The position numbers and the translations under genes were made by a program. A DNA stretch of 64,000 nt from Haliotis rufescens. Its lineage: Eukaryota. This document shows, piece by piece, positions 34,601 to 58,937 of this stretch. The notes beneath the pieces were generated by a model that was not told the DNA's origin, made no database searches, and saw only the letters and a program-made list of their open reading frames with translations. Position 1 is the stretch's first letter. Every line of letters begins with the position of its first letter. Location: positions 5,518,001 to 5,582,000 of the forward strand of contig NW_025964013.1 in assembly GCF_023055435.1 (NCBI RefSeq), given 5' to 3'.

Positions 34601-34699
34601 TATCTGAACATCCCCTACATTTTGTAGGAGTATATGTTTAGCATTCTATCTACAATCTAAACACATTATCAAATCTAAATGTGTTTAAAACTTAAATAG

Positions 34700-35021
34700 G
34701 ACTCCGTAGCTCGGTGGTAGAGCGTTTGTCGGGAGAGCGGAAGGTCGGGGATCCGAAACCCGGACGCCTCATTCCAAAAGATGTTAAGAGATGGTACTTG
34801 TTGTTACCCTGTCTGGCGCTCGTCATTAAGGGACTAAAACAAGGACTGGCTGCTTGGAGTCAGTATACTGTGTCTGAGTGGGATATTATGTTACACTGCG
34901 GCATGGTATCTCAGTGGTCTAGCACTATAAAACCGGACTAGTACAAGCAGCCACACATACGTCATGTAAGTGGCTAAAGTCAGAAATCAGGAATGCGACG
35001 TTACACTCCATACCACCTCAC
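34700..35021 (+). mobile_element. SINE family B (unit A only)
   Basis: Family B head and body. Confidence 0.8.
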
Positions 35022-35338
35022 GTCTTTGTGTGATAGCATTTTCAGTGATTAATCGGATAACCATATGTTAATCACATCTTCCAGTCGAAATACGTTTATG
35101 CATTAAAACTTAAGACACTGAATGTGTTTGGTTTTTATTTCGCTTTGTTAACTACAGATGCACGCACGTGTCATGGTTCACTGAAGTGGTACATGGTGAA
35201 ACTCTTATTGTCTTACACAACCTAGCAGAGAAAATATACGTGTCGGTGACGTCAAGTGCCATTATATCCTGGTAGTGTTAACAAACTTTACACTTATCAC
35301 GTCAGTGTTATATATACCTGGAGAACAACACAGGCGCC

Positions 35339-35450
35339 GGGACCCCGTTTGACGACGCGATCGCAGGGGTAAGTTAGTCTATGTAAGCCTGTGTTGAGCT
35401 ATGGGAGTAACGGCAGCCGTAACTTTACGATTGCTTCGTGAAACGGGCCC
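35339..35450. mobile_element. Small MITE-like element
   Basis: Imperfect TIRs gggaccccgtttgacgacgcgatcg / cgattgcttcgtgaaacgggccc. Confidence 0.55.
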
Positions 35451-36106
35451 AAGGCCGTTGGTTCGTTGGCCTTGAGTGGATACTGAAAAGTGCCGTTTGT
35501 TCGAGTTGTTCACAATATACACTGATATAATATCCACGGAACTCCAACATTCGGCTGTGATTTGAGACAGAGAGAGGACTCGTGACAGTACGTCATCAAA
35601 TGGAACAACTGTGACAACAATAGGGCTCGGCCTTGCATCGCCCTTTGATCTCGCTCTGCACCTTTGTCAAGATAAAGTATTGCTGCGGTTACCGTGTCAC
35701 TGTGCTGCTGCCCATAGACGAGTTTGACCTGACTTGTTGCTTCACAGACCTTACGATTGTAAGGATAAAATATATAGATGAACAGCTTATTTATTACAAT
35801 TAGGAGCGAGGTTTTTGAGTAGGTTCTAACACCATTATCAAGCATGTACATGTACAGAGTATATTACGATTGTGAATACGTTGAGCCTAAACACGTTTAA
35901 ATCCTAAGCACATTTATGAACGTGTCATTGATTGACATTAAACATCACAAGGTGTGTATGTTTGTGGTGATGTTGATCACTTCCATAGCTCGATGTCATC
36001 TCTCACAAACGTTGAGTGACTCAACAACACAGAGTATCCTTGCTCGGGAACAACGTTTTTTTCCAGTTTTCTATGAATACACGATGCCGTTTAGAAAGTG
36101 GTCAGA

Positions 36107-36217
36107 TGTAACTGATGTTACATTGGGATAACACTTCCTTAGTAAAGTACAATCCTCAAAAGTATTAGAGTGTGTACTTTACTAAGGAAGTGTTATCCCA
36201 ATATAACATTTGTTACA
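36107..36217. repeat. Long hairpin: 30-bp perfect stem, 21-nt loop
   Basis: attgggataacacttccttagtaaagtaca (36122-36151) pairs with tgtactttactaaggaagtgttatcccaat (36173-36202). Confidence 0.9.
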
Positions 36218-37180
36218 GTTTTCTTTGTTCACAAGAAACATTCAGAACAGAACTGTATTTTACTCAGGTCGAGAATCTCGGTATTTGGCAGACATTCATG
36301 TCCGTGATTGGCAGACAGTAGTTAACAGGAAAGTATACATATTACATACCAAAAACATCAGAATTTACCTTATTTCTATTAATTGAAATAGGTGTTGAAA
36401 TCATACCACGTTAGCATGTCGTCGCCATTGCCCCAAACTGCACATCAAGATACTCGGGTGAACAATTGACTTGCCTTTGCATGTGTTTGTGACGGGTGCC
36501 ACCGGTGGGGCAGGATACGCATACCTTTTCGCGAACACCTGGTATCATTACTCTTTGATAGTGATTAATAAACACATGCTCATGATATAGTCGGAATTTT
36601 ACAATCGACTCTGCTTAATGCAGTGTTTTCCATTGATTATGGAAAGGGTTTTGTCGCTTTATTTTTATGAATATGGAAATGGTTTTGTTGCTGCTTTTTT
36701 TTTATATGGCGACAAACAATTATAACCATTATAATATATTAAGTAAATAAGTAAACAAACTTTGTGTTATATAACACACATTGTTTTTGTTACTCACTGA
36801 CACAACCCCTTTACTTATCTGAAAGTGACAAACACTTTCCAAATATGAGTCCATTGTTTGGTTCCGACTGTGCCTTGAGCATGTGTTTATGAAGCATAAT
36901 CAAATTGTGAGGATACCAAGTGTTCGTGAAAAAGTGAGCGGGCACCGGTCACAAACACAAACAGTGGCAAATCAATTGATCACGGAAAAATATCAGGCAC
37001 CAATGATTAGTTCACAGGCTGTTTATTTAATCATAAACACGAAACACAATGTAGACAACGAAACGAAATGAGTGACGTTCAGTGCAGTAATCTAATTTTA
37101 TCAATTTATATAGCGCTGAAGTTTCTGAGTACCTGTTCACAGGCGCTTTTAGTTCCCCGACCAGTGAATCCGTTTGTATT

Positions 37181-37470
37181 ACCGCCTCCGTGGTCTAGTG
37201 GTAGAGCGATCACCCGGAGAGAGCAAGGTCCGGGGATCGATCCCCGGCCTTGTCATATCGAATATACGTTCAAAGATGGTACTTGTTGTTACCCTGTCTG
37301 GGGCTCGGCATTAAGGGGCAAAAACAAGGACTGGTCTGTTCGAAGTCAGTATACTGTGTCTGAGTGGGGTATTCATGTTAAACTGCGACATGGTATATCA
37401 GGGTGCTAGCTGTATAAAATCGGCATTTGTATATAAGTGCAATAATCTTGGACGCGACGTTACACCTCAC
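37181..37470 (+). mobile_element. SINE family B (copies at 44824-45112 and 52522-52812)
   Basis: Family B sequence carried within the triplicated unit. Confidence 0.8.
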
Positions 37471-38739
37471 ATCCAGTTATCGTTCTCAACTCCCTGGGGA
37501 GTATGCACACCTGTGCAGTCAGTCGGGTGCTAGACATTTGCACGCAAATCACCATCTCTTGCCTGCGTGGACGCCTCGCTATCAACACCGTCACCACGTG
37601 ACCATCATGTGACAGGAAGTTACTAAACGGTTTGATGTGAGGTTCCTATCAACAGAGTTAGGAACGTCATGATGACATTGCTTCATCAACATAACTGCTG
37701 ATCAATCAAACACGGCTTCACTTCCACAGCTAAATGTGCTCAGTGATGTGTGGATTCCAGAAGCGTGAGGGTATCTTGGATTACTGCTTGTTTAGCTGGA
37801 CATAATCCAACATGAGATTGCACATATTGTACCCATGTGGGGAATAGAACCCGGCCCGCGAACGCTTTAACCTTCAGGCTACCCTACCGCCAATCACGAA
37901 GTGAAGACAAAACACAAATTGCTGGAACATCAGTTTATTTACATTTAGGTATAGGAAGGAGAAGAATCTATATCCAACTGATATGTAACATTTTGTGTAC
38001 AACCGTGATAATTGATAATTGTGCATACTATTAATATTGACAGTACCTTCGCAGAGAATCTTAACTAAACTGTTACCAAGGGCAACTGATGCCCTGTTAA
38101 CCATTATAATCGATCTACCACACACAGGGGTTGAACTTGGATTCCCCTCCATACCAAGACACTATTTCACCGAGTTCCGTATGCAGTGGAGATGTTGCGA
38201 CGTCCGCTAAAATATAAAAACAAAACTGTGTCTGAAATTACGCTGGTGGTAAGTCATGGATTGTTGTATACCTACTTGATTGGGCACAAAGGGCCCATGT
38301 CGTGGCGTCAGGCAATAAATACTTACATTTCTATGCAAATTGTTTGAATGGCGGATGCTTACCCTTTTCGGTAGCACCAGTGGTCATCCCTAATTTTCAA
38401 TTGTTCATTCATATAATTTTCAAATGGAATCTGTTTCGTTGGATAATCCGGTTATTCTCTTGCATTGACAATTTATATTTGTGAACTAATTGAATTACTC
38501 TATATGGGCATCAACATATTGGTGTTAAATTTACTGGCAAAGCCATAAATACTCTATAAGTCGTTGTTTAACATGGCGCTATTTCAGCTGTCTGAATTGT
38601 TTGAACTGATACACTGATGCAAGTATTGTTTAGATAATGTGTTGAAACAGAAACAGTTCTATCCAATTTACGAAAGGAATGTGTTTGCCGGCATCACAAT
38701 TATGTAAACATTTGCAATAAGGTCTGAGGCTTACCTGTA

Positions 38740-39781
38740 TTAACCTGAACAGCAGGTATACGAGCCCACATAGTCTGCAACAAGAAGATTGTCACATTTC
38801 GCCGCCAGCGTCCCAGTACTACACAGTGAAGCCACTAGGTCGCTGCGGACACATCGTTGCGTGCACCCAGTTACTGAAATCAAGATAAAAAACAATTCAA
38901 TAAACACCAGTATGCATTCAACATTCTCACTGTAAGACTTCTACCTCTCAAAGGAACACTTCTCTATTGTGAAATACCTACAGGCCTACAGTTCTAAATA
39001 AGTGTCATGAAACCAAAACCATTTATAAGATTATATTTGAGATTATGACCTGTCTTATTGCACCACACCAAGGCTCTTAATATCATTACACGTGGAACAA
39101 ATACTAGTGTATCGAAGACCGACCCAACACAAACGTCTCCACGTTTCTAAGGACTCAAACCATCTGACATAATGTCTACATGTACAGCATTGATATCAAG
39201 GGAAAGGAAAGGTTCATACAGAAGGTTTTATCCGCGACTGTCGGCATTGTTGATTCTGCTGGTGGTGGGGTCGGTGGTGCTGTGGTCGGTGGTGGGGTCG
39301 GTGGTGCTGTGGTCGGTGGTGGAGTCGGTGGTGCTGTGGTCGGTGGTGGGGTCGGTGGTGCTGTTGTCGGTGGTGGAGTCGGTGGTGCTGTGGTCGGTGG
39401 TGGGGTCGGTGGTGCTGTTGTCGGTGGTGGGGTCGGTGGTGCTGTGGTCGGTGGTGGGGTCGGTGGTGCTGTGGTCGGTGGTGGAGTCGGTGGTGCTGTG
39501 GTCGGCTCTGGTTCCTTTGATTTGGGTTTCCTTGATTTGGGTTTCCTTGATTTTGGATTCCTTGACCATGGTTTCCTTGGTCCTCGTGTCTGCTTCCCGG
39601 GGTTTCGGACTGGTGCGGGTCCTGACGCTTGGTTGACTTGACAGTAGTCAGAATAGTACTTTTTAGCCAGTGTACACATGAAGTTAATATCGTATTTGTC
39701 GACGTATGTCGGACGTCCATGCGAGTACGATAGTTGGACTGAGCACGCGAACAGCAGGAGAACAAGCACGAAGGACGCCAT
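38740..39781 (-). CDS. Secreted Pro/Thr-rich, cationic-repeat, 6-Cys-domain protein, copy A (231 aa); exons 39781-39220 and 38873-38740
   Basis: Signal peptide MASFVLVLLLFACSVQLSYS; donor TCT|GTATGA; acceptor ATTTCAG|. The phase-1 join yields LTGCTQRCVRSDLVASLCSTGTLAAKCDNLLVADYVGSYTCCSG-stop. Contains 9 PTTAPPTPP units. Confidence 0.82.
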
Positions 39782-39801
39782 CTTGGATCCAAAGAACAAG
39801 T

Positions 39802-39834
39802 AGTGATATTCTCCTGTCGACATTCTCTTTTATA
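39802..39834 (-). promoter_or_regulatory. TATA box plus Inr core promoter of the secreted-protein gene
   Basis: TATAAAAG (39834-39827) lies exactly 30 nt upstream of the A in TCACT (39804). The TATA box is conserved in all three units. Confidence 0.7.
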
Positions 39835-40438
39835 GACGTGTCCTGAAACACATTTGTCTTATTGCTGACACCGATACAAGTGATAGTCTCTAATCTGTTA
39901 TTGAATGTATCTCACATGTCTTTAATATCAGAGAATTAGAATATTCGGTTACAGAGGTAACCTTCTCAATGGCAAGCACCCAGTAATAGATGCCTATGCG
40001 ATTAATTCATGCAACTTATTAAAAATACAGGAAATTAAGTTAATATGAGAGGATTGTCTTTTGACAACCGATTGAAGATGAGTTAATCGTCAGCATTTGC
40101 TCTTGATGGTAACCTCAATGTTTGACACTAGTTCATAGTTCTCAAAACGAGATACGTCCCTCCATGTGTAATAAAAAGGACAATCAGTCCAAACCCTTCC
40201 ACAATGTCAGCTCAAACGCTAAAACCACATTTTGGGGTTTAGTATTGACTTCGTCGAGCTGGCGGTTCATTTTATCCACATAGTGTCACGTGACACCTGC
40301 CATACTCTACATTCATTTCAAATTAGCTGAATTTCATTTGAGTTACAGTTCAAATTAATATTTCCAATATGTAACTCATTCTAACAAATGATGCGTATTT
40401 GAACCAACTTCAACGTAGCAAAAAGAGGACATAAGATA

Positions 40439-41451
40439 ATCTGGGCAGCAAAAGAAAGTATAGGTATAGGTCGAGTTCCATGATCAACCAGAGTTTGAAT
40501 GAAATTGTGCAATCACAGGTAATGTAAGCTCGAGCAAAACAATGGTGGGGTAAGAAAATTCATTTTCAAAAGTTGTCTGAAATGTCACCAAACAATTGTC
40601 AGACACACTACAAGTTCATTGCCAACACAGTTGCCTTTAATAGCGTGTATGACCTCCAGCTGCCTCAATGAATGCTGTGATACGCCGCCTCATCGATGAC
40701 GTGGACTGTAATCCGTTGCCACTCGTCTCTAAGGACCTGCTGCAATTCTTGTCTGTTGACGGGAGACGGATGGCGTGCTCTAATCTGTCTTTCAGATAGT
40801 CCCACGGCATTGTCGTGTTGAAACAATGTCCCCTGCTGTTGGTTTTGTAAGAACGGAAGCACAACTGGCTGCAACACTTGGTCTCTGTACTGCACAGCGT
40901 TCAGGTTTCCCTGTATAATCACCAACTCAGTCTTCTGATCTCCACAAATACCGCCCCACACCATGACACCTCCCCTGCCGAATGGATGGACCTCTAGAAT
41001 ACACGCCGGAGCCAAACGTTCCCTTCTGCGTCGATAAACTCGTTCACTGCCGTCATTTCGAAACAAGTTAAACCGACTTTCATCAGTAAACAGCACCCGA
41101 CGCCAATTTCTCACTTGCCAGCGTCGAACCTGCCTCGCCCATCGTAGTCTCAGGCGCCGATGTTTAGCAGTCAGTACCATTCCTCGGAAAGAAGTCGTCG
41201 TAGTACTGTACGTTGGCTTATGGGATTTCCAAACGCTGTTGCTGCCGTCGCCGTCGCCGTTACGAATCGGTTTCGCAGGTGAATGAGACGTATCTGACCG
41301 TCTTCCGGTGGTGTTGTCACTCGGGGTCGTCCGGTTCTAGGCCTGTCCTCCCTGTCTGCCTGTACCGTTGAATCAGCCTGGCTACTGTCAGTGGTTTACA
41401 ACCAAACCTTGCAATTTGGACCTGTGTTGCCCCAATTTCGGCCATACCGAT

Positions 41452-41529
<78 letters not shown>

Positions 41530-41825
41530 TCCTGTGACAGTCGTGGTATTTATTTTGTGTGCTTTCGTCAAGTGTGGTTTTACCCTGCAGACGAACGCAT
41601 TTATATAGCTAACATGCACGTGCAGTTTATGCCATAGGCGGGAAACCTGTTTCACCACTTTATTGTCAACGCACGAGCGCCGTCAAAAGTGACGCGCACG
41701 GGTGAGATGTTTTTTGGTACCCGTTCCTAGGCAGTCATATTCCCCATACCCACTTTCCACCAGTTATCGCTGTTTTTTTGGAAAATTACAAATTGCCAAC
41801 CTATACTTTCTTTTGCCGCTTAGTT
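40439..41825 (-). mobile_element. Decayed Tc1 element, unit A copy
   Basis: TIR (a)actnagcggcaaaagaaagtatagg with TA flanks; VLFTDES, VMVWGGI, HDNA; internal deletion; (GA)n expansion. Confidence 0.9.
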
Positions 41826-42919
41826 TACTTAAATGTTTCTACATAATTGTATAGATGCAGATGAACACGCTGATACTGAGATGAATACATAACAGCTAAC
41901 TGTTAAGAACGTGAAACATAATTCTTTTACTCTGTTTCTGAACGCGGCACTCGACATTATTCAAGAAACAGGAAAATTTCATTAAACTTAAATAAAATAC
42001 TGCGTTGGTTCATAATTTTGAATTATGTTCCAAGATTGAAAGTATTGAGGGAAATTAACCAATGTCCAGATACATACGTTAATTAGTAATATATAGTAGT
42101 TTGGATAAAACACTTTAATTGTCAAGCGGGTTAAATGTGTTCTTATTTTCCTGTCAATGATCCAAGTCACTTATTTGAGATGACTTCATGATCAACTGTA
42201 CGATTAATCCCTGGTAGAATGTCAAAAACGGCAGCTTCAGCTCTTTCACAATTTCCGAGGTACAATCGAGCATGCTCCTTGTACCAAGATTCCAAAGAGC
42301 CTGAGACGTTGTTTAATCAAGATTACAGTAAGGCCTCAGTAAAGCTTTCAAAACGTTTTAGTGTTGACATGTTTGTCACTTTCATTCACGCCACTTTGAA
42401 CAGCATTTCATTTTTGTCACGGAAAGGTCTGCGTAATGTGGGAGAAATGCCTGAAGTAATGAAGGTCGTAGACGTTCAGCATTTTAGTGGATTCCATGAG
42501 TACCGTTAGGCACTGGAGAACTTCCCTGGAGGGATGTGACCCTGTGATGATCAGATTCTGAAATGACTGAGGGATGCACCTGTTCACGCGATCTACCAAT
42601 CAATAAGCGGGTATAGAGTTTCTTAATAATGAAAGGTTGTCCAGGCGAACACTGTCCATAGACCTAGTTTCCCTTTGCACTTAAGATTAAATAGTTTGTT
42701 ATTTGTTTTCTATTTATAACTTATTCACTAATTAAGTACTGGGTAACTGATAGCGAGGTCGGGAGCGACATGACAATACTGGTGAGTGACACACTCATAT
42801 GACTAATCTTGTCATCTCATTCTCGCTCACAGTAACGCGGCGAAGCCAGGAAACGTCCAACCATCCTAAAGTAAGTTTATTTATTTAAAATTGGAAATGT
42901 CGAATCGCCAGTTTGTTCA

Positions 42920-43115
42920 TTATGTACTGACAGTTGTCGTCCTCAGTATGATTGACGTTGCTTGTAATGATCGTGTTTATTCTAATTCTCGGGATAACAA
43001 ATTAGATTGTAGCAATTAAGATCGCGCTCATATTACTGAGGTACAAGACTGACCCTATATTCCGATCCACGAAATATGTCCACCAGATGGATACATCCTT
43101 GTGCAAGATTTAAAC
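42920..43115 (+). pseudogene. Duplicated, internally deleted 3' fragment of membrane paralog 3
   Basis: Matches 33565-33857 with an internal deletion. Confidence 0.85.
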
Positions 43116-46100
43116 TTTTGAGACATTCATCTCTTCGGGCTTTCCCCCCACACAAAGCTGACACGCTGTGATATAAGTGGAATACTGTTAAAAGCGGCGT
43201 TAAACCAAACTCACTCACTATCTGGTCCTTCAGGAAAACGATTTTAAAATAGTTCCTTTGATGAATGTATACATCCAGCGTGCTTGCAGGATACGTCCGG
43301 CAATTTCGGACAATACATTAAATAAGGAAAATACAACAAAGCCTTTCTAAGCCAGCAGAAACCGAATAAAAATTACTTATGCTGAAACACTACATACCGC
43401 CACGATTGGTCAAACATTTGTTCATACAGAATGGCATGGTCCGAATCAATCTTCCAATGACAAATTGAGAGAGTCCTGTCAACTTCTCTTGCAGCGCCTG
43501 GCCCAGTTCTGCTAACGTAGCGGATGGCCTTTGACATCGCCGCGCACGTCTCCGGATCATGTCCAAGGCATACTCTGTTGGGGAAAGGTGAAGACTCTGG
43601 CTGGCCATTGCATTCTGGTAATGTTTCGCTGCTTGAGGTACTCAGTTATTTGCGCCTTGTGCGGAGCCGATTGTTAACATTTTGTAACTGCAGAAACCTG
43701 TTCCAAATTCCAAGAAAAGAACTAACGTGTTGCTGTGGATAATAAAAGTTTACAATACCAATTGCTCAGAGCAATTGGACGATTTTCTCTTAAGTGTCAA
43801 AATTAAGAATGACCACATAACAGGGTGCACGGAGGAAGTGCATGGTCCATGTGGAATTTTATGATTTAGTCCCGAAACCGTCCTCTGGTAGTCGTTTTTC
43901 AAAGCCGATCTTTCTTCTGACGACCGATCATGAAAACAACACAGGCGCCGGGACCCCGTTAACAGGAAAAGTATACATATTACATACCAGAAACATAAGA
44001 ATTTACCTTATTTCTATTAATTGAAATAGGTGTTGAAATCATACCACGTTAGCATGTCGTCGCAATTGCCCCAAACTGCGCATCAACGTACTACGGTGAA
44101 CAACTGACTTCCCTTTGCATGTGTTTGTGACGGGTGCCACCGGTGGGGCAGGATACGCTTACCGTTTCGCGAACACCTGGTATCATTACTTTTTGATATT
44201 GATTCATAAACACGTGCTCATGATACAGTCGAAATTCTACAATCGACTCTGCTTTATGCAGTGTTTTCTATTGGATATGGAAAGGGTTTTGTCGCTTTAT
44301 TTTTATGAATATGGAAGGGGTTTTGTTGCTTATGTTTTATATGGCGACAAACAATTATAACCATTATAATATATTAAGTAAATAAGTAAACAAGCTTTGT
44401 GTAGTATAACACACATAATTTTTGTTACTCACTCACACAACCCCTTTACTATGAAAGTGACAAACCCTTTCCAAAATCATGTCAAAAATGAGTCCATTGT
44501 CTGATTCCGACTATGCCTTGAGCATGTGTTTATGAAGCATAATCAAATTGTGAGGATACCAAGTGTTCGTGAAAAAGTGAGCGTGCACCGGTCACAAACA
44601 CAAACATGGGCAAATCAATTGATCACGGAAAAATATCAGGCACCAATAGTTAGTTCACAGGCTGTTTATTCAATCATAAACACGAAACACAATGTAGACA
44701 ACGAAACGAAATAAGTGACGTTCAGTGCAGTAATCTAATTTTATCAATTTATATAGCGCTGAAGTTTCAGAGTACCTGTTCACAGGCGCTTTTAGTTCCC
44801 CGACCAGTGAATCCGTTTGTATTACCACCTCAGTGGTCTAGTGGTAGAGCGTTCGCCCGGAGAGCGCAAGCTCCGGGGATCGATCCCCGGCCTTGTCATA
44901 TCGAATATACGTTCAAAGATGGTACTTGTTGTTACCCTGTCTGGGGCTCGGCATTAAGGGGCAAAAACAAGGACTGGTCTGTTCGAAGTCAGTATACTGT
45001 GTCTGAGTGGGATATTCATGTTAAACTGCGACATGGTATATCAGGGTGCTACCTGTATAAAATCGGCATTTGTATATAAGTGCAATAATCTTGGACGCGA
45101 CGTTACATCTCACATCCAGTTATCGTTCTCAACTCCCTGGGGAGTATGCACACCTGTGCAGTCAGTCGGGTGCTAGACATTTGCACTCAAATCACCATCT
45201 TTTGCTTGCGTGGACGCCTCGCCATCAACACCGTCACCACGTGACCATCATGTGACAGGAAGTTACTAAACGGTTTGATGTGAGGTTCCTATCAACAAAG
45301 TTAGGAACGTCATGATGACATTGCATCATCAACATAACTGCTGATCAATCAAACACGGCTTCACTTCCACAGCTAAATGAGCTCAGTGATGTGTGACATC
45401 ACGGGACATGTTGGATTCCAGAAGCGTAAGGCCATTTTGGATTACTGCTTGTTTAGCTGGACATAATCCAACATGTGATTGCAGATATTGTACTCATGTT
45501 GGGAATAGAACCCGGCCCGCGAACGCTTTAACCTCCAGGCTACCCCACCGGAAATCACGAAGTGAAGACAAAACACAAATTGCTGGAACATCAGTTTATT
45601 TATATTTAGGTATAGGAAGGAGAAGAATCTATATCCAACTGATATGTAACATTTTGTGTACAACCGTGATAATTTATAATTGTGCATACTATTAATATTG
45701 ACATTACCTTCGCAGAGAATCTTAAGTAAACTGTTACCAAGGGCAACTGATGCCCTGTTAACCATTGTAATCGATCTACCACACATAGGGGTTGAACTTG
45801 GATTCCCCTTCATACCAAGACACTATTTCACCGAGTTCCGTATGCAGTGAGTGTTCCGACGTCCGCTAAAATATAAAAACAAAACTGTGTCTGAAATTAC
45901 GCTGGTGGTAAGTCATGGATTGTTGTATACCTACTTGATTGGGCACAAAGGGCCCATGTCGTGGCGTCAGGCAATAAATACTTACATTTCTATGCAAATT
46001 GTTTGAATGGCGGATGCTTACCCTTTTCGGGAACACAAGTGGTCATCCCTAATTTTCAATTGTTCATTCATATAATTTTCAAATGGAATCTGTTTCGTTG

Positions 46101-46398
46101 GATAATCCGGTTATTCTCTTGCATTGACAATTTATATTTGTGAACTAATTGAATTACTCCAAATGGGCATCAAAATAGTGGTGTTAAATTTACTGGCAAA
46201 GCCATAAATACTCTATAAGTCGTTGTTTAACATGGCGCTATTTCAGCTGTCTGAATTGTTTGAACTGATACACTGATGCAAGTATTGTTTAGATAATGTG
46301 TTGAAACAGAAACAGTTCTATCCAATTTACGAAAGGAATGTGTTTGCCAGCATCAAAATTATGTAAACATTTGCAATAAGGTCAAAGGCTTACCTGTT

Positions 46399-47426
46399 TT
46401 AACCTGAACAGCAGGTATACGAGCCCACATAGTCTGCAACAAGAAGATTGTCACATTTCGTCGCCAGCGTCCCAGTACTACACAGTGAAGCGACTAGGTC
46501 GCTGCGGACACATCGTTGTGTGCACCCAGTTACTGAAATCAAGATAAAAAACAATTCAATAAACACCAGTATGCATTCAACATTCTCACTGTAAGACTTC
46601 TACCTCTCAAAGGAACACTTCTCTATTGTGAAATACCTACAGGCCTACAGTTCTAAATAAGTGTCATGAAACCAAAACTCAGTGTGATACCATGCATGTC
46701 CAAATGAGCTGCCATTTATAAGATTATATTTGAGATTATGACCTGTCTTATTGCACAACACCAAGGCTCTTAATATCATTACACGTGGAACAAATACTAG
46801 TGTATCGAAGACCGACCCAACACAAACGTCTCCACGTTTCTATGGACTCAAACCATCTGACATAATGTCTACATGTACAGCATTGATATCAAGGGAAAGG
46901 AAAGGTTCATACAGAAGGTTTTATCCGCGACTGTCGGCATTGTTGATTCTGCTGGTGGTGGGGTCGGTGGTGCTGTGGTTGGTGGTGGAGTCGGTGGTGC
47001 TGTGGTCGGTGGTGGAGTCGGTGGTGCTGTGGTCGGTGGTGGGGTCGGTGGTGCTGTGGTCGGTGCTGGGGTCGGTGGTGCTGTGGTCGGTGCTGGTGGA
47101 GTCGGTGGTGCTGTGGTCGGTGGTGGTGGGGTCGGTGGTGCTGTGGTCGGCTCTGGTTCCTTTGATTTGGGTTTCCTTGATTTGGGTTTCCTTGATTTTG
47201 GATTCCTTGACCATGGTTTCCTTGGTCCTCGTGTCTGCTTCCCGGGGTTTCGGACTGGTGCGGGTCCTGACGCTTGGTTGACTTGACAGTAGTCAGAATA
47301 GTACTTTTTAGCCAGTGTACACATGAAGTTAATATCGTATTTGTCGACGTATGTCGGACGTCCATGAGAGTACGATAGTTGGACTGAGCACGCGAACAGC
47401 AGGAGAACAAGCACGAAGGACGCCAT
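46399..47426 (-). CDS. Secreted Pro/Thr-rich 6-Cys protein, copy B (215 aa); exons 47426-46913 and 46532-46399
   Basis: Same splice sites and intact frame; 7 Pro/Thr units; all cysteines conserved. Confidence 0.8.
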
Positions 47427-48083
47427 CTTGGATCCAAAGAACAAGTAGTTATATTCTCCTGTCGACATTCTCTTTTATAGACGTGTCCTGAAACACATTT
47501 GTCTTATTGCTGACACCGATACAAGTGATAGTCTCTAATCTGTTATTGAATGTATCCCACATGTCTTTAATATCAGAGAATTAGAATATTCGGTTACAGA
47601 GGTAACCTTCTCAATGGCAAGCACCCAGTAATAGATGCCTATGCGATTAATTTATGCAACTTATTAAAAATACAGGAAATTAAGTTAATATAAGAGGATT
47701 GTCTTTAGACAACCGATTGAAGATGAGTTAATCGTCAGCATTTGATCTTGATGGTAACCTCAATGTTTGACACTAGTTCATAGTTCTCAAAACGAGATAC
47801 GTCCCTCCATGTGTAATAAAATGTACAATCAGTCCAAACCCTTCCACAATGTCAGCTGAAACGCTAAAACCACATTTTGGGGTTAAGTATTGACTTCGTC
47901 AAGCTGGCGGTTCATTTTATCCACATAGTGTCATGTGACACCTGCCATACTCTACATTCATTTCAAATTAGCTGAATTTCATTTGAGTTACAGTTCAAAT
48001 TAATATTTCCAATATGTAACTCATTCTAACAAATGATGCGTTTTTGAACCCACTTCAACGTAGCAAAAAGAGGACATAAGATA

Positions 48084-49429
48084 AACTGGGCAGCAAAAGA
48101 AAGTATAGGTATAGGTCGAGTTCCATGATCAACCACAGTTTGAATGAAATTGTGCAATCACAGGTAATGTAAGCTCGAGGTAAACAATGGTGGGGTAAGA
48201 AAATTCATTTTCAAAAGTTGTCTGAAATGTCACCAAAAAATTGTCATACACACTACAAGTTCGTTGCCAACACAGTTGCCTTTAATAGCGTGTATGACCT
48301 CCAGCTGCCTCAATGCATGCTGTGATACGCCGCCTCATCGATGACGTCAGTCTTCCGATGACGTGGACTGTAATCCGTTGCCACTCGTCTCTAAGGGCCT
48401 GCTGCAATTCTTGTCTGTTGACGGGAGACGGATGGCGTGCTCTAATCTGTCTGTCAGATAGTCCCACGGCATTGTCGTGTTGCAACAATGTCCCCTGCTG
48501 TTGGTTTTGTAAGAACGGAAGCACAACTGGCTGCAACACTTGGTCTCTGTACTGCACAGCGTTCAGGTTTCCCTGTATAATCACCAAATCAGTCTTCTAA
48601 TCTCCACAAATACCGCCCCACACCATGACACCTCCCCTGCCGAATGGATGGACCTCTAGAATACACGCCGGAGCCAAACGTTCCCTTCTGCGTCGATAAA
48701 CTCGTTCACTGCCGTCATTTCGAAACAAGTTAAACCGACTTTCATCAGTAAACAGCACCCGACGCCAATTTCTCACTTGCCAGCGTCGAACCTGCCTCGC
48801 CCATCGCAGTCTCAGGCGCCGATGTTTAGCAGTCAGTACCATTCCTCGGAACGAAGTCGTCGTAGTACTGTACGTTGGCTTATGGGATTTCCCAACGCTG
48901 TTGCTGCCGTCGCCGTCGCCGTTACGAATCGGTTTCGCAGGTGAATGAGCCGTATCTGACCGTCTTCCAGTGGTGTGACACTCGGGGTCGTCCGGTTCTA
49001 GGCCTGTCCTCCCTGTCTGCCTGTACCGTTGAATCAGCCTGGCTACTGTCAGTGGTGTACAACCAAACCTTGCAATTTGGACCTGTGTTGCCCCAATTTC
49101 GGCCATACCGATGGCTCTCTCTCTCTCTCTCTGCTCCTGTGACAGTCGTGGTATTTCTTTTGTGTGCTTTCGTCAAGTGTTGCTATACCCTGCAGACGAA
49201 CGCATTTATACAGCTAACATGCACGTGCAATTTATGCCATAGGCGGGAAACCTGTTTCACCATTTTTTTGTCACCGCACGAGCGCCGTCAAAGGTGGCGC
49301 GTACGGGTGAGATGTTTTTTGGTACCCGTTCCTGTGCAGTCATATTCCCCATACCCACTTTCCACCAGTTATCGCTGTTTTTTGAAAAATTACAAATTGC
49401 CAACCTATAATTTCTTTTGCCGCTTAGTT
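48084..49429 (-). mobile_element. Decayed Tc1 element, unit B copy
   Basis: Same TIRs; shares the HDNA-VGLS deletion with the unit A copy. Confidence 0.9.
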
Positions 49430-50523
49430 TACTTAAATGTTTCTACATAATTGTATAGATGCAGATGAACACGCTGATACTGAGATGAATACATAACAGC
49501 TAACTGTTAAGAACGTGAAACATAATTCTTTTACTCTGTTTCTGAACGCGGCACTCGACATTATTCAAGAAACAGGAAAATTTCATTAAACTTAAATAAA
49601 ATACTGCGTTGGTTCATAATTTTGAATTATGTTCCAAGATTGAAAGTATTGAGGGAAATTAACCAATGTCCAGATACATAGGTAAATTAGTAATATATAG
49701 TAGTTTGGATAAAACACTTTTATTGACAGGCGGGTTAAATGTGTTTTTATTTTCCTGTCAATTATCCAAGTCACTTATTTGAGATGACTTCATGATCAAC
49801 TGTACGATTAATCCCTGGTAGAATGTCAAAAACGGCAGCTTCAGCTCTTTCACAATTTCCGAGGTACAATCGAGCATGCTCCTTGTACCAAGATTCCAAA
49901 GAGCCTGAGACGTTGTTTAATCAAGATTACAGTAAGGCCTCAGTAAAGCTTTTAAAACGTTTTAGTGTTGACATGTTTGTCACTTTCATTCACGCCACTT
50001 TGAACAGCATTTCATTTTTGTCACGGAAAGGTCTGCGTAATGTGGGAGAAATGCCTGAAGTAATGAAGGTCGTAGACGTTCAGCATTTTAGTGGATTCCA
50101 TGAGTACCGTTAGGCACTGGAGAACTTCCCTTGAGGGATACGACCCTGTGATGATCAGATTCTGAAATGACTGAGGGATGCACCTGTTCACGCGATCTAC
50201 CAATCAATAAGCGGGTATAGAGTTTCTTAATAATGAAAGGTTGTCCAGGCGAACACTGTCCATAGACCTAGTTTCCCTTTGCACTTAAGATTAAATAGTT
50301 TGTTATTTGTTTTCTATTTATAACTTATTCACTAATTAAGTACTGGGTAACTGATAGCGAGGTCGGGAGCGACATGACAATACTGGTGAGTGACACACTC
50401 ATATGACTAATCTTGTCATCTCATTCTCGCTCACAGTAGCGCGGCGAAGCCAGGAAACGTCCAACCATGCTAAAGTAAGTTTATTTATTTGAAATTGGAA
50501 ATGTCGAATCGCCAGTTTGTTCA

Positions 50524-50810
50524 TTATGTACTGACAGTTGTCGTCCTCAGTATGATTGACGCTGCTTGTAATGAGCTGTACACCCGTTATACCTTTGGGT
50601 CAGATATCACAAGAATAATTATATACAGTGCCATCACCGTAAACAATTTCGGCATGACAAAGGTAAACACTATCATGTTTATTCTAATTCTCGGGATAAC
50701 AATAGGAATTGTAGCAATTAAGATCGCGCTCATATTACTGAGGTACAAGACCCTGTATTCCCATCCACGAAATATGTCCACCAGATGGATACATCCTTGT
50801 GCGAGATTTA
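50524..50810 (+). pseudogene. Duplicated 3' fragment of membrane paralog 3
   Basis: LTVVVLSMIDAACNELYTRYTFGSD...LLRYKT, followed by a frameshift. Confidence 0.85.
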
Positions 50811-53800
50811 AACTTTTGAGACATGCATCTCTTCAGGCTTTCCTCCCACATAAAGCTGACACGCTGTGATATAAGTGGAATATTGTTAAAAGCGGCGTTA
50901 TACCCAACTCACTCACCATCTGGTCCTTCAGGAAAACGATTTTAAAATAGTTCCTTTGATGAATGTATACATCCAGCGTGCTTGCAGGATACGTCCGGCA
51001 ATTTCGGACAATACATGAAATAAGGAAAATACAACAAAGCCTTTCTTAGCCAGCAGAAACCGAATAAAAATTACTCATGCTGAAACACTACACACCGCCA
51101 CGATTGGTCAAACATTTGTTCATACAGAATGGCATGGTCCAAATCAATCTTCCAATGACAAATTGAGATAGTCCTGTCAAATCCTCTTGCAGCGCCTGGC
51201 CCAGTTCTGCTAACGTAGCGGATGGCCTTTGACATCGCCGCGAACGTCTCCGGATCATGTCCCAGGCATACTCTGTTTGGGAAAGGTGAGGACTCTGGCT
51301 GGCCATTGCATTCTGGTAATGTTTCGCTGCTTGAGGTACTCAGTTATTTGCGCCTTGTGCAGAGCCGATTGTTAACATTTTGTAACTGCCGAAACCTGTT
51401 CCAAATTCCAAGAAAAGAACTAACGTGTTGCTGTGGATAATAAAAGTTTACAATACCAATTGCTCAGAGCAATTGGACGATTTTCTCTTAAGTTTCAAAA
51501 TTAAGAATGACCACCTAACAGGGTGCACGGAGGAAGTGCATGGTCCATGTGTAATTTTATGATTTAGTTCCGAAACCGTCCTCTGGTAGTCGTTTTTCAA
51601 AGCCGATCTTTCTTCTGACGACCGATCATAAAAACAACACAGGCGCCGGGACCCCGTTAACAGGAAAAGTATACATATTACATACCAGAAACATAAGAAT
51701 TTACCTTATTTCTATTAATTGAAATAGGTGTTGAAATCATACCACGTTAGCATGTCGTCGCCATTGCCCCAAACTGCGCATCAACGTACTACGGTGAACA
51801 ACTGACTTCCCTTTGCATGTGTTTGTGACGGGTGCCACCGGTGGGGCAGGATACGCTTACCTTTTCGCGAACACCTGGTATCATTACTCTTTGATATTGA
51901 TTCATAAACACGTGCTCATGATACAGTCGAAATTCTACAATCGACTCTGCTTTATGCAGTGTTTTCTATTGGATATGGAAAGGGTTTTGTCGCTTTATTT
52001 TTATGAATATGGAAGGGGTTTTGTTGCTTATGTTTTATATGGCGACAAACAATTATAACCATTATAATATATTTAGTAAATAAGTAAACAAGCTTTGTGT
52101 AGTATAACACACATAATTTTTGTTACTCACTCACACAACCCCTTTACTATGAAAGTGACAAACCCTTTCCAAAATCATGTCAAAAATGAGTCCATTGTCT
52201 GATTCCGACTGTGCCTTGAGCATGTGTTTATGAAGCATAATCAAATTGTGAGGATACCAAGTGTTCGTGAAAAAGTGAGCGTGCACCGGTCACAAACACA
52301 AACATGGGCAAATCAATTGATCACGGAAAAATATCAGGCACCAATAATTAGTTCACAGGCTGTTTATTCAATCATAAACACGAAACACAATGTAGACAAC
52401 GAAACGAAATAAGTGACGTTCAGTGCAGTAATCTAATTTTATCAATTTATATAGCGCTGAAGTTTCTGAGTACCTGTTCACAGGCGCTTTTAGTTCCCCG
52501 ACCAGTGAATCCGTTTGTATTACCACCTCAGTGGTCTAGTGGTAGAGCGTTCGCCCGGAGAGCGCAAGCTCCGGGGATCGATCCCCGGCCTTGTCATATC
52601 GAATATACGTTCAAAGATGGTACTTGTTGTTACCCTGTCTGGGGCTCGGCATTAAGGGGCAAAAACAAGGACTGGTCTGTTCGAAGTCAGTATACTGTGT
52701 CTGAGTGGGATATTCATGTTAAACTGCGACATGGTATATCAGGGTGCTAGCTGTATAAAATCGGCATTTGTATATAAGTGCAATAATCTTGGACGCGACG
52801 TTACACCTCACATCCAGTTATCGTTCTCAACTCCCTGGGGAGTATGCACACCTGTGCAGTCAGTCGGGTGCTAGACATTTGCACTCAAATCACCATCTTT
52901 TGCCTGCGTGGACGCCTCGCCATCAACACCGTCACCACGTGACCATCATGTGACAGGAAGTTACTAAACGGTTTGATGTGAGGTTCCTATCAACAAAGTT
53001 AGGAACGTCATGATGACATTGCATCATCAACATAACTGCTGATTAATCAAACACGGCTTCACTTCCACAGCTAAATGTGCTCAGTGATGTGTGACATCAG
53101 GGGACATGTTGGATTCCAGAAGCGTAAGGCCATTTTGGATTACTGCTTGTTTAGCTGGACATTATCCAACATGAGATTGCAGATATTGTACTCATGTTGG
53201 GAATAGAACCCGGGCCGCGAACGCTTTAACCTCCAGGCTACCCCACCGGAAATCACGAAGCGAAGACAAAACACAAATTGCTGGAACATCAGTTTATTTG
53301 CATTTAGGTATAGGAAGGAGAAGAATCTATATCCAACTGATATGTAACATTTTGTGTACAACCGTGATAATTGATAATTGTGCATACTATTAATATTGAC
53401 AGTACCTTCGCAGAGAATCTTAAGTAAACTGTTACCAAGGGCAACTGATGCCCTGTTAACCATTGTAATCGATCTACCACACATAGGGGTTGAACTTGGA
53501 TTCCCCTCCATACCAAGACACTATTTCACCGAGTTCCGTATGCACTGCAGATGTTCCGACGTCCGCTAAAATATAAAAACAAAACTGTGTCTGAAATTAC
53601 GCTGGTGGTAAGTCATGGATTGTTGTATACCTACTTGATTGGGCACAAAGGGCCCATGTCGTGGCGTCAGGCAATAAATACTCACATTTCTATGCAAATT
53701 GTTTGAATGGCGGATGCTTACTCTTTTCGGGAACACCAGTGGTCATCCCTAATTTTCAATGGTTCATTCATATAATTTTCAAATGGAATCTGTTTCGTTG

Positions 53801-54066
53801 GTTATTCTCTTGCATTGACAATTTATATTTGTGAACTAATTGAATTACTCTATATGGGTATCAACATATTGGTGTTAAATTTACAAGTCGTTGTTTAACA
53901 TGGCGCTATTTCAGCTGTCTGAATTGTTTGAACTGATACACTGATGCAAGTATTGTTTAGATAATGTGTTGAAACAGAAACAGTTCTATCCAATTTACGA
54001 AAGGAATGTGTTTGCCAGCATCAAAATTATGAAAACATTTGCAATAAGGTCTGAGGCTTACCTGTA

Positions 54067-55611
54067 TTAACCTGAACAGCAGGTATACGAGCCCACATAC
54101 TCTGCAACTAGAAGATTGTCACATTTCGTCGCCAGCGTCCCAGTACCACACAGTGAAGCCACTAGGTCGCTGCGGACACATCGTTGTGTGCACCCAGTTA
54201 CTGAAATCAAGATAAAAAACAATTCATTTAACACCAGTATGCATTCAACATTCTCACTGTAAGACTTCTACCTCTCAAAGGAACACTTCTCTATTGTGAA
54301 ATACCTACAGGCCTACAATTCTAAATAAGTGTCATGAAACCAAAACTCAGTGTGATACCATGCATGTCCAAATGAGCTGCCATTTATAAGATTATATTTG
54401 AGATTATGACCTGTCTTATTGCACCACACCAAGGCTCTTAATATCATTACACGTGGAACAAATACTAGTGTATGGAAGACCGACCCAACACAAACGTCTC
54501 CACGTTTCTAAGGACTCAAACCATCTGACATAATGTCTACATGTACAGCATTGATATCAAGGGAAAGGAAAGGTTCATACAGAAGGTTTTATCCGCGACT
54601 GTCGGCATTGTTGATTCTGCTGGTGGTGGGGTCGGTGGTGCTGTGGTTGGTGGTGGGGTCGGTGGTGCTGTGGTCGGTGGTGGAGTCGGTGGTGCTGTGG
54701 TCGGTGGTGGGGTCGGTGGTGCTGTGGTCGGTGGTGGAGTCGGTGGTGCTGTGGTCGGTGGTGGGGTGGGTGGTGCTGTGGTCGGTGGTGGGGTCGGTGG
54801 TGCTGTGGTCGGTGGTGGGGTCGGTGGTGCTGTGGTCGGTGGTGGAGTCGGTGGTGCTGTGGTCGGTGGTGGAGTCGGTGGTGCTGTGGTCGGCGGTGGG
54901 GTCGGTGGTGCTGTGGTCGGTGCTGGTGGAGTCGGTGGTGCTGTGGTCGGTGGTGGGGTCGGTGGTGCTGTGGTCGGTGGTGGAGTCGGTGGTGCTGTGG
55001 TCGGTGGTGGGGTCGGTGGTGCTGTGGTCGGTGCTGGGGTCGGTGGTGCAGTGGTCGGTCGTGGTGGAGTCGGTGGTGCTGTGGTCGGTGGTGCTGGGGT
55101 CGGTGGTGCTGTGGTCGGAGGTGGTGGGGTCGGTGGTGCTGTGGTCGGATGTGCTGGGGTCGGTGATGCTGTGGTCCTTGATTTGGGTTTCCTTGATTTG
55201 GGTTTCCTTGATTTGCGTCTCCTTGATTTGGGTTTCCTTGATTTGGGATTCCTTGATTTGGGTTTCCTTGATTTGGGTTTCCTCGATTTTGGATTCCTTG
55301 ATTTGGGTTTCCTTGATTTGGGATTCCTTGATTCGGGATTCCTTGATTTGGGATTCCTTGATTTGGGTTTCCTTGATTTGGGTTTCCTTGATTTGGGATT
55401 CCTTGACCATGGTTTCCTTGGTCCTCGTGTCTGCTTCCCGGGGTTTCGGACTGGTGCGGGTCCTGACGCTTGGTTGACTTGACAGTAGTCAGAATAGTAC
55501 TGTTTAGCCAGGGTACACATCGTATTTGTCGACGTATGTCGGACGTCCATGCGAGTACGATAGTTGGACTGAGCACGCGAACAGCAGGAGAACAAGCACG
55601 AAGGACGCCAT
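54067..55611 (-). pseudogene. Secreted Pro/Thr-rich 6-Cys protein, copy C; frameshifted by an 11-nt deletion; exons 55611-54581 and 54200-54067
   Basis: gaagttaatat is missing at about 55520 relative to A and B, giving ...VDKYDVYPG-stop (TAA 55506-55504). The downstream frame is open, with 15 basic pentapeptides, 20 Pro/Thr units and an intact Cys exon. Confidence 0.75.
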
Positions 55612-56058
55612 CTTGGATCCAAAGAACAAGTGGTGATATTCTCCTGTCGACATTCTCTTTTATAGACGTGTCCTGAAACACATTTGTCTTATTGCTGACA
55701 CCGATACAAGTGATAGTCTCTAATCTGTCATTGAATGTATCTCACATGTCTTTAATATCAGAGAATTAGAATATTCGGTTACAGAGGTAACCTTCTCAAT
55801 GGCAAGCAGTCCAAACCCTTCCACAATGTCAGCTCAAACGCTAAAACCACATTTTGGGGGTAAGTTTTGACTTCGTCGAGCTGGCGGTTCATTTTATCCA
55901 CATAGTGTCATGTGACACCTGCCATACTCTACATTCATTTCAAATTAGCTGAATTTCATTTGAGTTACAGTTCAAACTAATATTTCCAATATGTAACTGA
56001 TTCTAACAAATAATGTGTATTTGAACACACACACACAGCAAAAAGAGGACATAAGATA

Positions 56059-57219
56059 AACTGAGCGGCAAAAGAAAGTATAGGTCGAGTTCCATGACCG
56101 ATAAAAAAATAACATGAAGAGGTTTTGTTGTGAATTATAATATAATCTAGGGAGGGGTAACAAATGATTGATCAACCACAGTTTGAATGAAATTGTGCAA
56201 TCACAGGTAATTTAAGTTCAAGTTAAACAATGGTGTGGTAAGAAATTTCATTTTCAAAAGTTGTCTGAAATGTCACCAAAAACTTCAATAGTGTGTATGA
56301 CCTCCAGCTGTCTCAATGCGTGCTGTGATACGCCGCCTCATCGATGACGTCAGTCTTCCGATGACGTGGACTGTAATCCGTTGCCACTCGTCTCTCAGGG
56401 CCTGCTGCAATTCTTGTCTGTTGACGGGAGGCTGATGGCGTGCTCTAATCTGTCTGTCAAGATGGTCCCACAGATGTTCAATAGGATTCATATCGGGTGA
56501 GTGGGAAGGCCGGGACAAAACGTCAGCGTTCTGCTGGTTTAGAAAGTTCCGAGTCAGTCTTGCAGTATGGGGCCTGGCATTGTCGTGTTGAAACAATGTC
56601 CCCTGCTGTTGGTTTTGTAAGAACGGAAGCACAACTGGTTGCAACACTTGGTCTCTGTACTGCACAGCGTTCAGGTTTCCCTGTATAATCACCAAATCAG
56701 TCTTCTGATCTCAACAAGTACCGCCCCACACCATGAAAACCTCCCCTGCCGAATGGATGGACCTCTCGAATACACGCCGGAGCCAAACGTTCCCCTTTGC
56801 GTCGTCAAACTCGTTCTCTGCCGACATTTCGAAACAAGTTAAACCGACTTTCATCAGTAAACAGCACCCGACGTCAATTTCTCACTTGCCAGCGTCGAAC
56901 CTGCCTCGCTCATCAGGCGTCGATATTCAGCAGTGAGTACCAATCCTCGGAACGAAGTTGTTGTAGTACTGTACGTTGGCTTATGGGATTTCCCAACGCT
57001 GCTGTCGCTGTCGCCGTCGCCGTTACGAATCTGTTTCGCAGGTGAATGAGCCGTATCTGACCGTCTTCCAGTGGTGTTGTCACTCGGGGTCGTCCGGTTC
57101 TAGGCCTGTCCTGTGTCCTCCCTGTCTGCCTGTACCGTTGAATCAGCCTGGCTACTGTCAGTGGTGTACAACAAAATCTTGGACCTGTGTTGCCCCAATT
57201 TTGGCCATACCGATGGCTC

Positions 57220-57274
<55 letters not shown>

Positions 57275-57559
57275 TCCTGTGACACTCGTGGTATTTCTTT
57301 TATGTGCTTTCGTCACGTGTGGTTATACCCTGCATTTATACAGCTAACATGCACGTGCAGTTTATGCCATAGGCGGGAAACCTGTTTCGCCATTTTATTG
57401 TCACCGCGAGAGCGCCGTCAAAGGTGGCGCTTACGGATGAGATGTTTTTTGGTACCCGTTCCTAGGCAGTCATATTCCCCATACCCACTTTCCACCAGTT
57501 ATCGCTGTTTTTAGGAAAATTACAAATTGCCAACCTATACTTTCTTTTGCCGCTTAGTT
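56059..57559 (-). mobile_element. Decayed Tc1 element, unit C copy (most complete catalytic region)
   Basis: TIRs; HDNARPH...SPDMNPIEHLWD retained; frameshifts upstream. Confidence 0.9.
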
Positions 57560-58937
57560 TACTTAAATGTTTCTAACAAATTGCATAGATCCAGATGAAC
57601 ACGCTGATACTGAGATGAATACATAACAGCTAACTGTTAAGGACGTGTAAAATCATTCTTTTATTCGGTTTCTAAACGCGGCACTCAATTTTATTTAGGA
57701 AACAGGAAAAATTCATTAAACTTAAATAAAATACTGCGTTGGTTCATAATTTTGAATTATGTTACAAGATTGAAAGTATTGAGGGAAATTAACCAAGAAA
57801 GACCGTCACCAATGTTCAGATACATACGTAAATTAGTAATATATAGTAGTTTGGATAAAACACTTTTATTGACGGGCGGGTTTAATGTGTTCTAATTTTC
57901 CTGTCAATGATCCAAGTCACTTATTTGAGATGACTTCATGATCAACTATACGATTAATCCCTGGTAGAATGTCAAAAACTGCAGCTTCAGCTCTTTCACA
58001 ATTTCCGAGGTACAATCGAGCATGCTCCTTGTACCAAGATTCCAAAGAGCCTGAGACGTTGTTTAATCAAGGTTACAGTAAGGCCTCGGTTAAGCTTTCA
58101 AAACGTTTTAGTGTTGACATGTAGGGGTCATTAGCAAATTCAGAAACAAAAATGGATGTCTGATCCAATTCTTTATTCTAACTATGGTTCGTGTTTTGTT
58201 CTTCTGGTTAACAACTGACTTGCTTTGGTATGTGTTTACGTCGGGTGCCACCGGTGAGGCAGGAAAGGCACACCTTTTGGAAAGTGATGCATAAACACAT
58301 GCTCATGATATAGTCGACATCGTATTATCCACTCTGACTTTGGCAGAGTTTTGATAAAAAATAGAAAGGGGTTTGTCACTTTCATTCCCGCCACTTTGAA
58401 CAGCATTTCATTTTTGTCACGGAAAGGCCTGCGTAATGTGGGAGAAATGCCTGAAGTAATGTAGGTCGTGGGCGTTCAGCATTTTAGTGGATTCCATGAG
58501 TACCGTTAGGCACTGGAGAACTTCCCTGGAGGGATACGACCCTGTAATGATCAGAAATGACTGAGGGATGCACCTGTTCACGCGATCTACCAATCAATAA
58601 GCGGGTATAGAGTTTCTTAATAATGAAAGGTTGTCCAGCCGAACACTGTCCATAGACCTAGTTTCCCTTTGCACTTAAGATTAAATAGTTTGTTATTTGT
58701 TTTCTATTTATAACTTATTCACTAATTAAGTACTGGGTAACTGATAGCGAGGTCGGGAGCGACATGACAATACTGGTGAGTGACACATTCATATGACTAA
58801 TCTTGTCATCTCATTCTCGCTCACAGAAACGCGCCGAAGCCAGGAAACGTCCAACCATGCTAAAGTAAGTTTATTTATTTAAAATCAGATTTGTTAAATC
58901 GCCAGTTTGTTCAATGTGTAATGAACCATCTGAAACA

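What the first reader, a model, noticed from the sequence alone, without database searches (positions are those of the whole stretch)
42920..50523. Middle unit is a chimera, with the crossover apparently inside the Pro-repeat exon
Seen: on the left, B and C share derived deletions absent from A (loss of about 34600-35325 and 35350-36320), a ~34-nt segment (46677/54347) that A lacks, and repeat variants (gtggtt, PAP). On the right, A and B share derived deletions absent from C (Tc1 HDNA-VGLS deletion; loss of the 58120-58375 block) and the 3x basic repeat plus KEPEP. Inference: an A-C tandem pair produced A-(C/A)-C by unequal crossover within the PTTAPPTPP array, so the coding minisatellite itself may drive gene amplification.
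Basis: partly seen in the sequence, partly recalled or inferred. Interest (0 to 1): 0.7.

Follow-up and report, generated by a model that had tools for sequence, protein, structure and literature searches.

The report
Hybrid middle copy of abalone gene
The middle of three side-by-side copies of an abalone gene region is a hybrid of its two neighbours, likely made by an ordinary unequal crossover whose exact site cannot be pinned to the gene's proline repeat.

Summary
The mosaic is real; the claim about its site is not established. Three tandem units (A 33564-42919, B 42920-50522, C 50523-58913) each carry a two-exon gene for a predicted secreted Pro/Thr-rich protein with a six-cysteine tail; C is frameshifted. 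B is 2.1% from C and 5.2% from A on its left, and 1.9% from A and 4.7% from C on its right (MaxChi 112.6, 0 of 10,000 permutations). One 7.45-kb block aligns across the junction, as one unequal exchange in an A-C pair predicts. But over the gene all three copies are only 1.4-2.6% apart and outgroup-polarised sites conflict. Unpolarised sites put the switch at about 45.75-46.4 kb, 0.55-1.2 kb from the array; polarised sites tie three intervals, one being the array. I put the crossover in the array at about 0.25. Other duplication breakpoints here lie outside the array, and a paralog cluster shows exchange all along its genes, so 'the minisatellite drives amplification' is unsupported. This is a new example of a textbook process.

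The parts
33564..42919 (.). Unit A (left tandem copy; joins unique left flank)
42920..50522 (.). Unit B (middle copy; C-like left, A-like right)
50523..58913 (.). Unit C (right copy; runs into unique right flank)
42920..45860 (.). C-like part of B: 2.1% from C, 5.2% from A
   Evidence: 2,825 columns
45861..47150 (.). Unresolved zone that holds the switch: 3' flank, exon 2, intron and Pro array; conflicting polarised sites
47151..50522 (.). A-like part of B: 1.9% from A, 4.7% from C
   Evidence: (3,021 columns)
46913..47426 (-). B gene exon 1 (coding): signal-peptide-like start, short Cys segment, basic repeat, Pro/Thr array
   Evidence: identical to annotated protein P0006 over 171 aa
46399..46532 (-). 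B gene exon 2 (coding): six-cysteine tail and stop; GT-AG phase-1 intron 46533-46912
   Evidence: P0006 joins the exons this way
46953..47150 (-). B Pro array: 7 units of 27 or 30 nt (PTTAPPTPP type)
38740..39781 (-). A gene, open; 9 pure 27-nt array units at 39261-39505; 34-nt A-only deletion in the intron
54067..55611 (-). C gene, broken: 11-nt deletion near 55518 gives a stop after 35 codons; Pro array expanded to about 20 units, basic repeat to about 15
48090..49420 (-).
42916..42930 (.). A/B junction: same breakpoint and same 1-nt deletion as the B/C junction; B-only 98-nt deletion follows at 42970
50519..50534 (.). B/C junction; crossed by a contig of run X1 (50077-50558)
1..45243 (.). 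Right-hand part of the second copy of a 78.8-kb near-identical tandem duplication that ends inside B at 45243; the first copy lies upstream of the window and holds a fourth gene copy (A')

Best explanation
Unit B is a mosaic, C-like on its left and A-like on its right, and it likely arose by one unequal homologous exchange between the two units of an older A-C tandem pair, at a site somewhere in 45.75-47.15 kb that these data cannot narrow. Shown: the switch, the shared junction, and the single 7.45-kb block that spans it. Inferred: (1) an older duplication with a short-homology junction gave A-C, now 4-6% apart in their flanks; (2) gene conversion, perhaps with selection, kept the gene zone of A and C about 2% apart, making it the best substrate for misaligned pairing; (3) an exchange in that zone copied 'right of A + junction + left of C' to give B; (4) later short conversions, array turnover and alleles shared among animals scrambled the markers in the zone; C then lost its frame. 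The Pro array is one possible site (my estimate about 0.25), not a demonstrated cause.
For: Distances switch for B while A-C stays at 4.6% and 5.0% on the two sides. MaxChi 112.6, 0 of 10,000 permutations reach it. Right side: 15 A+B-derived, 0 B+C-derived, 2 A+C-derived of 85 polarisable sites. Left side: of 27 rows at 43105-44649 where run X14 differs from B, 12 carry A's letter at B+C sites and none carries C's letter at an A+B site (one search showed only 40 of 377 rows). 39506-46952 aligns with 47151-54621 in one piece across the junction, 143 mismatches. Both junctions share breakpoint and a 1-nt deletion. A contig of run X1 crosses the B/C junction by 35 letters and another spans both left-hand deletion points without a gap, so these forms exist in a public run that differs from this assembly. 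A two-change-point model puts an evenly low-divergence zone at about 45.6-45.9 to 47.6-48.0 kb.
Against: Sequence alone cannot separate one crossover from two long conversion tracts. B's halves are not identical to their donors (1.3% at 43951-45860, 3.8% at 42920-43950, 2.0% at 47901-50522), so the event is old or involved other alleles. X14 is only 2-4% from B in the zone and may be an ortholog of one unit rather than a true outgroup; paralogs and X14 disagree at 46559 and 46650. On polarised markers alone the array gets 0.24-0.51 of the weight, more than its 10-13% share of the zone's length, and B's array resembles C's up to 47150 while A-like sequence starts at 47151. No read depth or phased long reads of the assembled animal were seen.
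Confidence: 0.78

Rival explanations
1. The exchange fell inside the Pro array or at its 5' edge (46980-47151); later conversion or shared alleles explain the conflicting sites to its left.
For: B's array units resemble C's through 47150 and A-like KEPEP begins at 47151. B+C-derived sites at 46349, 46356, 46461 and probably 46980 (inferred: all other units start with the other letter). The interval ties for fewest conflicts and is the longest of the three tied ones. One of the two longest perfect A-C runs (173 nt, 46807-46979) ends in the array.
Against: A+B-derived sites at 46479 and 46432 lie left of the array. In the 500 columns around the array B is 0.4% from A and 2.2% from C. Unpolarised fits are 6 changes or 9.5-10.7 log units worse. 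The 10-residue units are also in P0007, so A's pure array may simply have turned over.
Confidence: 0.25
2. No single crossover: three copies arose by two duplications and were then homogenised by long gene-conversion tracts (B with C on the left, A with B on the right).
For: Conversion-like scrambling is visible in the zone (all three groupings occur) and in the paralog cluster (459 of 1,596 site pairs incompatible). B-C divergence on the left is uneven (0.4-5%).
Against: Needs two tracts of about 3 kb that meet exactly at a shared junction; one 7.45-kb block across the junction is explained by a single event.
Confidence: 0.13
3. One unit is a second haplotype falsely assembled in tandem.
For: The same region holds a 78.8-kb duplication with only 34 difference events outside repeat arrays, which could itself be an assembly effect. 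No raw genomic reads were available.
Against: A, B and C are three distinct sequences, each with its own changes, more than one diploid single-copy locus holds. The end-to-start junction is crossed by a contig of run X1.
Confidence: 0.05

Closest known systems
Non-allelic homologous recombination (unequal crossing over) between direct repeats, as reviewed in PMC2583991 (passages read)
   Different: Human cases are mapped from many recurrent events; here there is one assembled haplotype, repeats of 8-9 kb, and no hotspot can be shown.
Stickleback spiggin tandem family (PMC4989455; passages read)
   Same: Tandem genes for a secreted repeat-rich protein; one assembled locus (spiggin B3) is a chimera of two neighbours; unequal crossing over and conversion are invoked.
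   Different: Unrelated protein (MUC19-derived); there the authors propose L1 elements as the substrate; chimeras were also seen as transcripts, which I did not test here.
KIR hybrid genes (PMC2816608; passages read) and Drosophila Sdic array (PMC7475035; passages read)
   Same: Copy number change and hybrid genes in tandem arrays by unequal exchange, with conversion homogenising copies.
   Different: KIR breakpoints were mapped to 44-93 bp because both parent haplotypes were sequenced; here the parents are not in hand and the window is 1.4 kb wide.
Human salivary proline-rich protein genes (title of Lyons, Stein and Smithies 1988 seen in a reference list; the PRB2/1 fusion gene is recalled from memory, not read)
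   Different: Unrelated sequence; the paper itself was not held, so its breakpoints were not compared.

Membership tests
Hybrid unit made by unequal homologous exchange in a tandem array | Direct tandem repeats of high identity | tested here: met
   Three direct units, 91-98% alike in aligned blocks
Hybrid unit made by unequal homologous exchange in a tandem array | Middle unit switches affinity once, left part like the downstream unit and right part like the upstream unit | tested here: met
   MaxChi 112.6, 0 of 10,000 permutations; distances 5.2/2.1% left and 1.9/4.7% right; polarised right side 15:0:2
Hybrid unit made by unequal homologous exchange in a tandem array | No new junction: the old junction is copied and the exchange lies in homologous sequence | tested here: met
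   Both junctions share breakpoint and 1-nt deletion; one block aligns across the junction
Hybrid unit made by unequal homologous exchange in a tandem array | Reciprocal or other copy-number haplotypes in the population | tested here: inconclusive
   Contigs of five runs laid show junction and alleles but, by the tool's own statement, give no copy number
Minisatellite-driven recombination hotspot | Exchange maps inside the minisatellite | tested here: inconclusive
   Three tied intervals on polarised markers; unpolarised fits prefer 45.75-46.4 kb
Minisatellite-driven recombination hotspot | Independent events cluster at the minisatellite | tested here: not met
   Unit junction 3.4 kb from the array; 78.8-kb duplication ends 1.7 kb from it with one base of homology; in 9 of the 11 paralog-cluster genes, 16 non-overlapping exchange intervals over 3.2 kb, 1 of which spans the Thr/Pro repeat. 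These are indirect: the paralog repeat is more degenerate and only one A/C exchange is in hand.
Minisatellite-driven recombination hotspot | Raised exchange rate measured in gametes or pedigrees | not testable with these tools
   Needs sperm typing or crosses

The most novel reading that the evidence does not exclude
The coding Pro array is a recurrent exchange hotspot: it both changes the protein's linker length and seeds whole-gene copy number change in an abalone-restricted family of secreted cysteine/Pro-Thr proteins, with B the product of an exchange at the array's 5' edge.
Probability: 0.08. Interest if true: 0.45.

Novelty: new member of a known kind. Interest (0 to 1): 0.2.

Why it matters
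As it stands, little: a two-copy tandem that grows to three by unequal exchange must give a hybrid middle unit unless the exchange hits the junction, so the mosaic is expected. It is a clean example in an uncharacterised, still-amplifying abalone gene family (20 matches to exon 2 in this genome) whose function is open. It would matter more if many independent exchanges mapped to the 200-nt coding array, which would tie protein repeat evolution to gene copy number in a natural population.

Tried and rejected
Pfam scan of 5 proteins: no family at E <= 1 for the B exons, P0001 or P0003; one sub-threshold X8 hit (E 0.2) for P0005. Atlas search of P0001: no usable hit, which shows nothing about novelty. 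No family scan of the Tc1-like element was answered (one search failed on a frame error in another query and the element was left out). No RNA holder is on record in the run search; expression was not tested. First lay of contigs on all of B was swamped by dispersed repeats (337 of 377 difference rows not shown). Contig depth was not used as copy number. I first read the MaxChi peak (45786/45847) as the crossover and dropped that: it marks where A's old divergence ends, and the star-like zone cannot reject an exchange further right (binomial p = 0.10 for A-only 6 of 29). I also dropped the paralog-only polarisation that made exon 2 and intron look A-like (4 sites): X14 reverses two of them (46559, 46650). 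The weighting of intervals uses penalties I chose (0.1, 0.25, 0.5) and 9 markers, one of them (46980) polarised only by inference; it ignores single-copy changes. Two of the 11 cluster genes (the divergent one at 4.043 Mb and the partial one at 4.104 Mb) were left out of the cluster alignment. Earlier scan notes near this place: none. Papers PMC1203497 and PMC1914931 were not held. A search for Haliotis with three automatic protein names returned 1 unrelated paper; one search does not show the family is undescribed. No supplements were read. No fold was predicted.
Full report
Setting. A self-comparison shows three direct repeats: A 33564-42919, B 42920-50522, C 50523-58913. The window is G000:C235:5518001-5582000 in a 1.33-Gb genome. 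Each unit holds a two-exon gene on the minus strand. B's exon 1 is identical over 171 residues to a database protein that its source labels Haliotis rufescens, with one close relative labelled H. cracherodii (P0006, P0007), so this is an abalone locus. The product has a signal-peptide-like start, a short cysteine segment, a basic repeat, a Pro/Thr array and a six-cysteine tail; secretion is inferred from the start. The database names (glue-like, gp1-like, gibberellin-regulated-like) look like automatic matches to low-complexity sequence; Pfam finds nothing. All 7 hits that reach the cysteine parts and whose names I saw are Haliotis proteins (P0001-P0005, P0021, P0022); the other 17 of 22 hits were weak (E 3e-9 or higher), centred on the Thr/Pro stretch, and were not looked up. 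Exon 2 has 20 matches in this genome: 4 at this locus, 11 in a cluster 1.4 Mb away, 5 on another contig. A and B are open; C has an 11-nt deletion and stops after 35 codons, and both its repeats are expanded.

Is B a mosaic? Yes. In 6,872 ungapped columns, 145 group B with C and 150 group A with B, and they are sorted by position: MaxChi 112.6 against a maximum of 24.4 in 10,000 permutations. Over 42920-45860, B is 2.1% from C and 5.2% from A; over 47151-50522, 1.9% from A and 4.7% from C; A-C stays at 4.6% and 5.0%. That B changes while A-C does not marks B as the recombinant. On the right I could polarise with five dispersed copies of the Tc1-like element: of 85 sites with outgroup letters (7 more had none), 15 are A+B-derived, none B+C-derived, 2 A+C-derived, the rest single-copy changes or unclear; three deletions (74, 104, 7 nt) are A+B-derived. 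On the left, 12 of 27 displayed rows for run X14 carry A's letter at B+C sites and none carries C's letter at an A+B site, though only 40 of 377 rows were shown.

Mechanism. Both junctions have the same breakpoint and the same 1-nt deletion relative to A's left end, and 'right of A + junction + left of B' aligns to 'right of B + junction + left of C' as one 7.45-kb block with 143 mismatches. One unequal homologous exchange in an A-C pair gives exactly this; established theory (PMC2583991, passages) says such exchanges favour stretches of uninterrupted identity and carry conversion near the crossover. The exchange itself is inferred. A false tandem assembly is unlikely: three distinct sequences, and a contig of run X1 crosses the B/C junction by 35 letters. 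Copy number in other animals could not be read from contigs.

Where is the switch? Unpolarised sites peak at 45786/45847, with support from about 45550 to 46400; the array is 9.5-10.7 log units worse and needs 63 changes against 57. But that peak mainly marks the end of A's old divergence. Between 45861 and 46952 the three copies are 1.7-2.2% apart with 6 A-only, 12 C-only and 11 B-only changes, compatible with a star (p = 0.34). Polarising the 37 variable sites at 45715-46945 with run X14 gives B+C-derived at 45767, 46349, 46356, 46461, A+B-derived at 46479, and A+C-derived at 46160 and 46757; 46432 is A+B-derived by P0007 and four paralogs. Right of the array, KEPEP with the short basic repeat and site 47306 are A+B-derived by P0007. 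With 46980 counted as B+C-derived (inferred), three intervals tie at two conflicts: 46356-46432, 46461-46479, 46980-47151; weighting by length gives the array 0.24-0.51. Against that, the 500 columns round the array put B 0.4% from A and 2.2% from C. Taking both views I estimate about 0.25. Letters that are single-copy in this assembly also occur in other runs (B's letters at 46037, 46757, 46843 in X1; A's at 46031, 46033 in X5 and X8), so alleles are shared among animals and one haplotype cannot resolve the site.

The 34-nt segment is present in paralogs and spanned without a gap in 4 of 4 runs: an A-only loss.

Does the array drive amplification? Nothing here says so. The unit junction is 3.4 kb from B's array. 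A much younger 78.8-kb tandem duplication, which copied gene A whole, ends at 45243 inside B and joins unrelated sequence with one base of homology. The paralog cluster reached 11 copies with a more degenerate Thr/Pro repeat; among 9 of them, 459 of 1,596 site pairs are incompatible and the 16 minimal exchange intervals run along the whole 3.2 kb, one spanning the repeat.

Comparison. Hybrid units in tandem arrays are well documented: spiggin B3 in stickleback (PMC4989455, passages), KIR hybrids (PMC2816608, passages), Sdic (PMC7475035, passages). Minisatellites near exchange hotspots are noted in PMC2583991, and unequal crossing over in a coding proline repeat is the title of a 1988 paper seen only in a reference list. 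Verdict: a real, ordinary hybrid copy; site unresolved; causal role of the array unsupported. Interest 0.2.

Noticed in passing
G000:C235 about 5405546-5484363 and 5484363-5563243 (second copy ends at window 45243): A 78.8-kb tandem duplication with 34 difference events outside repeat arrays, most of them in one 4-kb patch, and a junction with one base of homology. It adds a fourth gene copy (A', annotated as the same protein as A) and a gene-less left piece of B. Very recent duplication or assembly effect; not tested with reads.
   Followed up: partly
G000:C235:4043000-4151000 (L033-L044): Tandem cluster of 11 paralogs on the opposite strand, periods 5.6-8 kb, 92-99% alike, with a long Arg/Cys-rich N-terminal region that the window's genes lack; copies are mosaics of each other.
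   Followed up: partly
window 54067-55611: The frameshifted copy C has the longest arrays (about 20 Pro units and 15 basic units against 7-9 and about 3 in A and B); its basic repeat is nearer the long form in P0007.
   Followed up: partly
G000:C334:51248905-54377236: Five more distant matches to the six-cysteine exon (53-58% identity); relatives P0021 and P0022 share the same layout. The family has no Pfam match and no function in hand.
   Followed up: no
G000:C235 about 5626455-5661856 (L027-L030): A satellite of 810-nt units, 97-99% alike, running at least 35 kb downstream of the window.
   Followed up: no
window 42996-43005 and 42970: B has a 98-nt deletion just after its junction and a tight cluster of changes 26-35 nt further on; B-C divergence in the first kilobase (3.8%) is three times that of the next two.
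   Followed up: no
window 1-250, 5758-6257, 7007-8178, 9094-10094: Minisatellite arrays with 31-, 32- and 40-nt units, all inside the large duplication.
   Followed up: no
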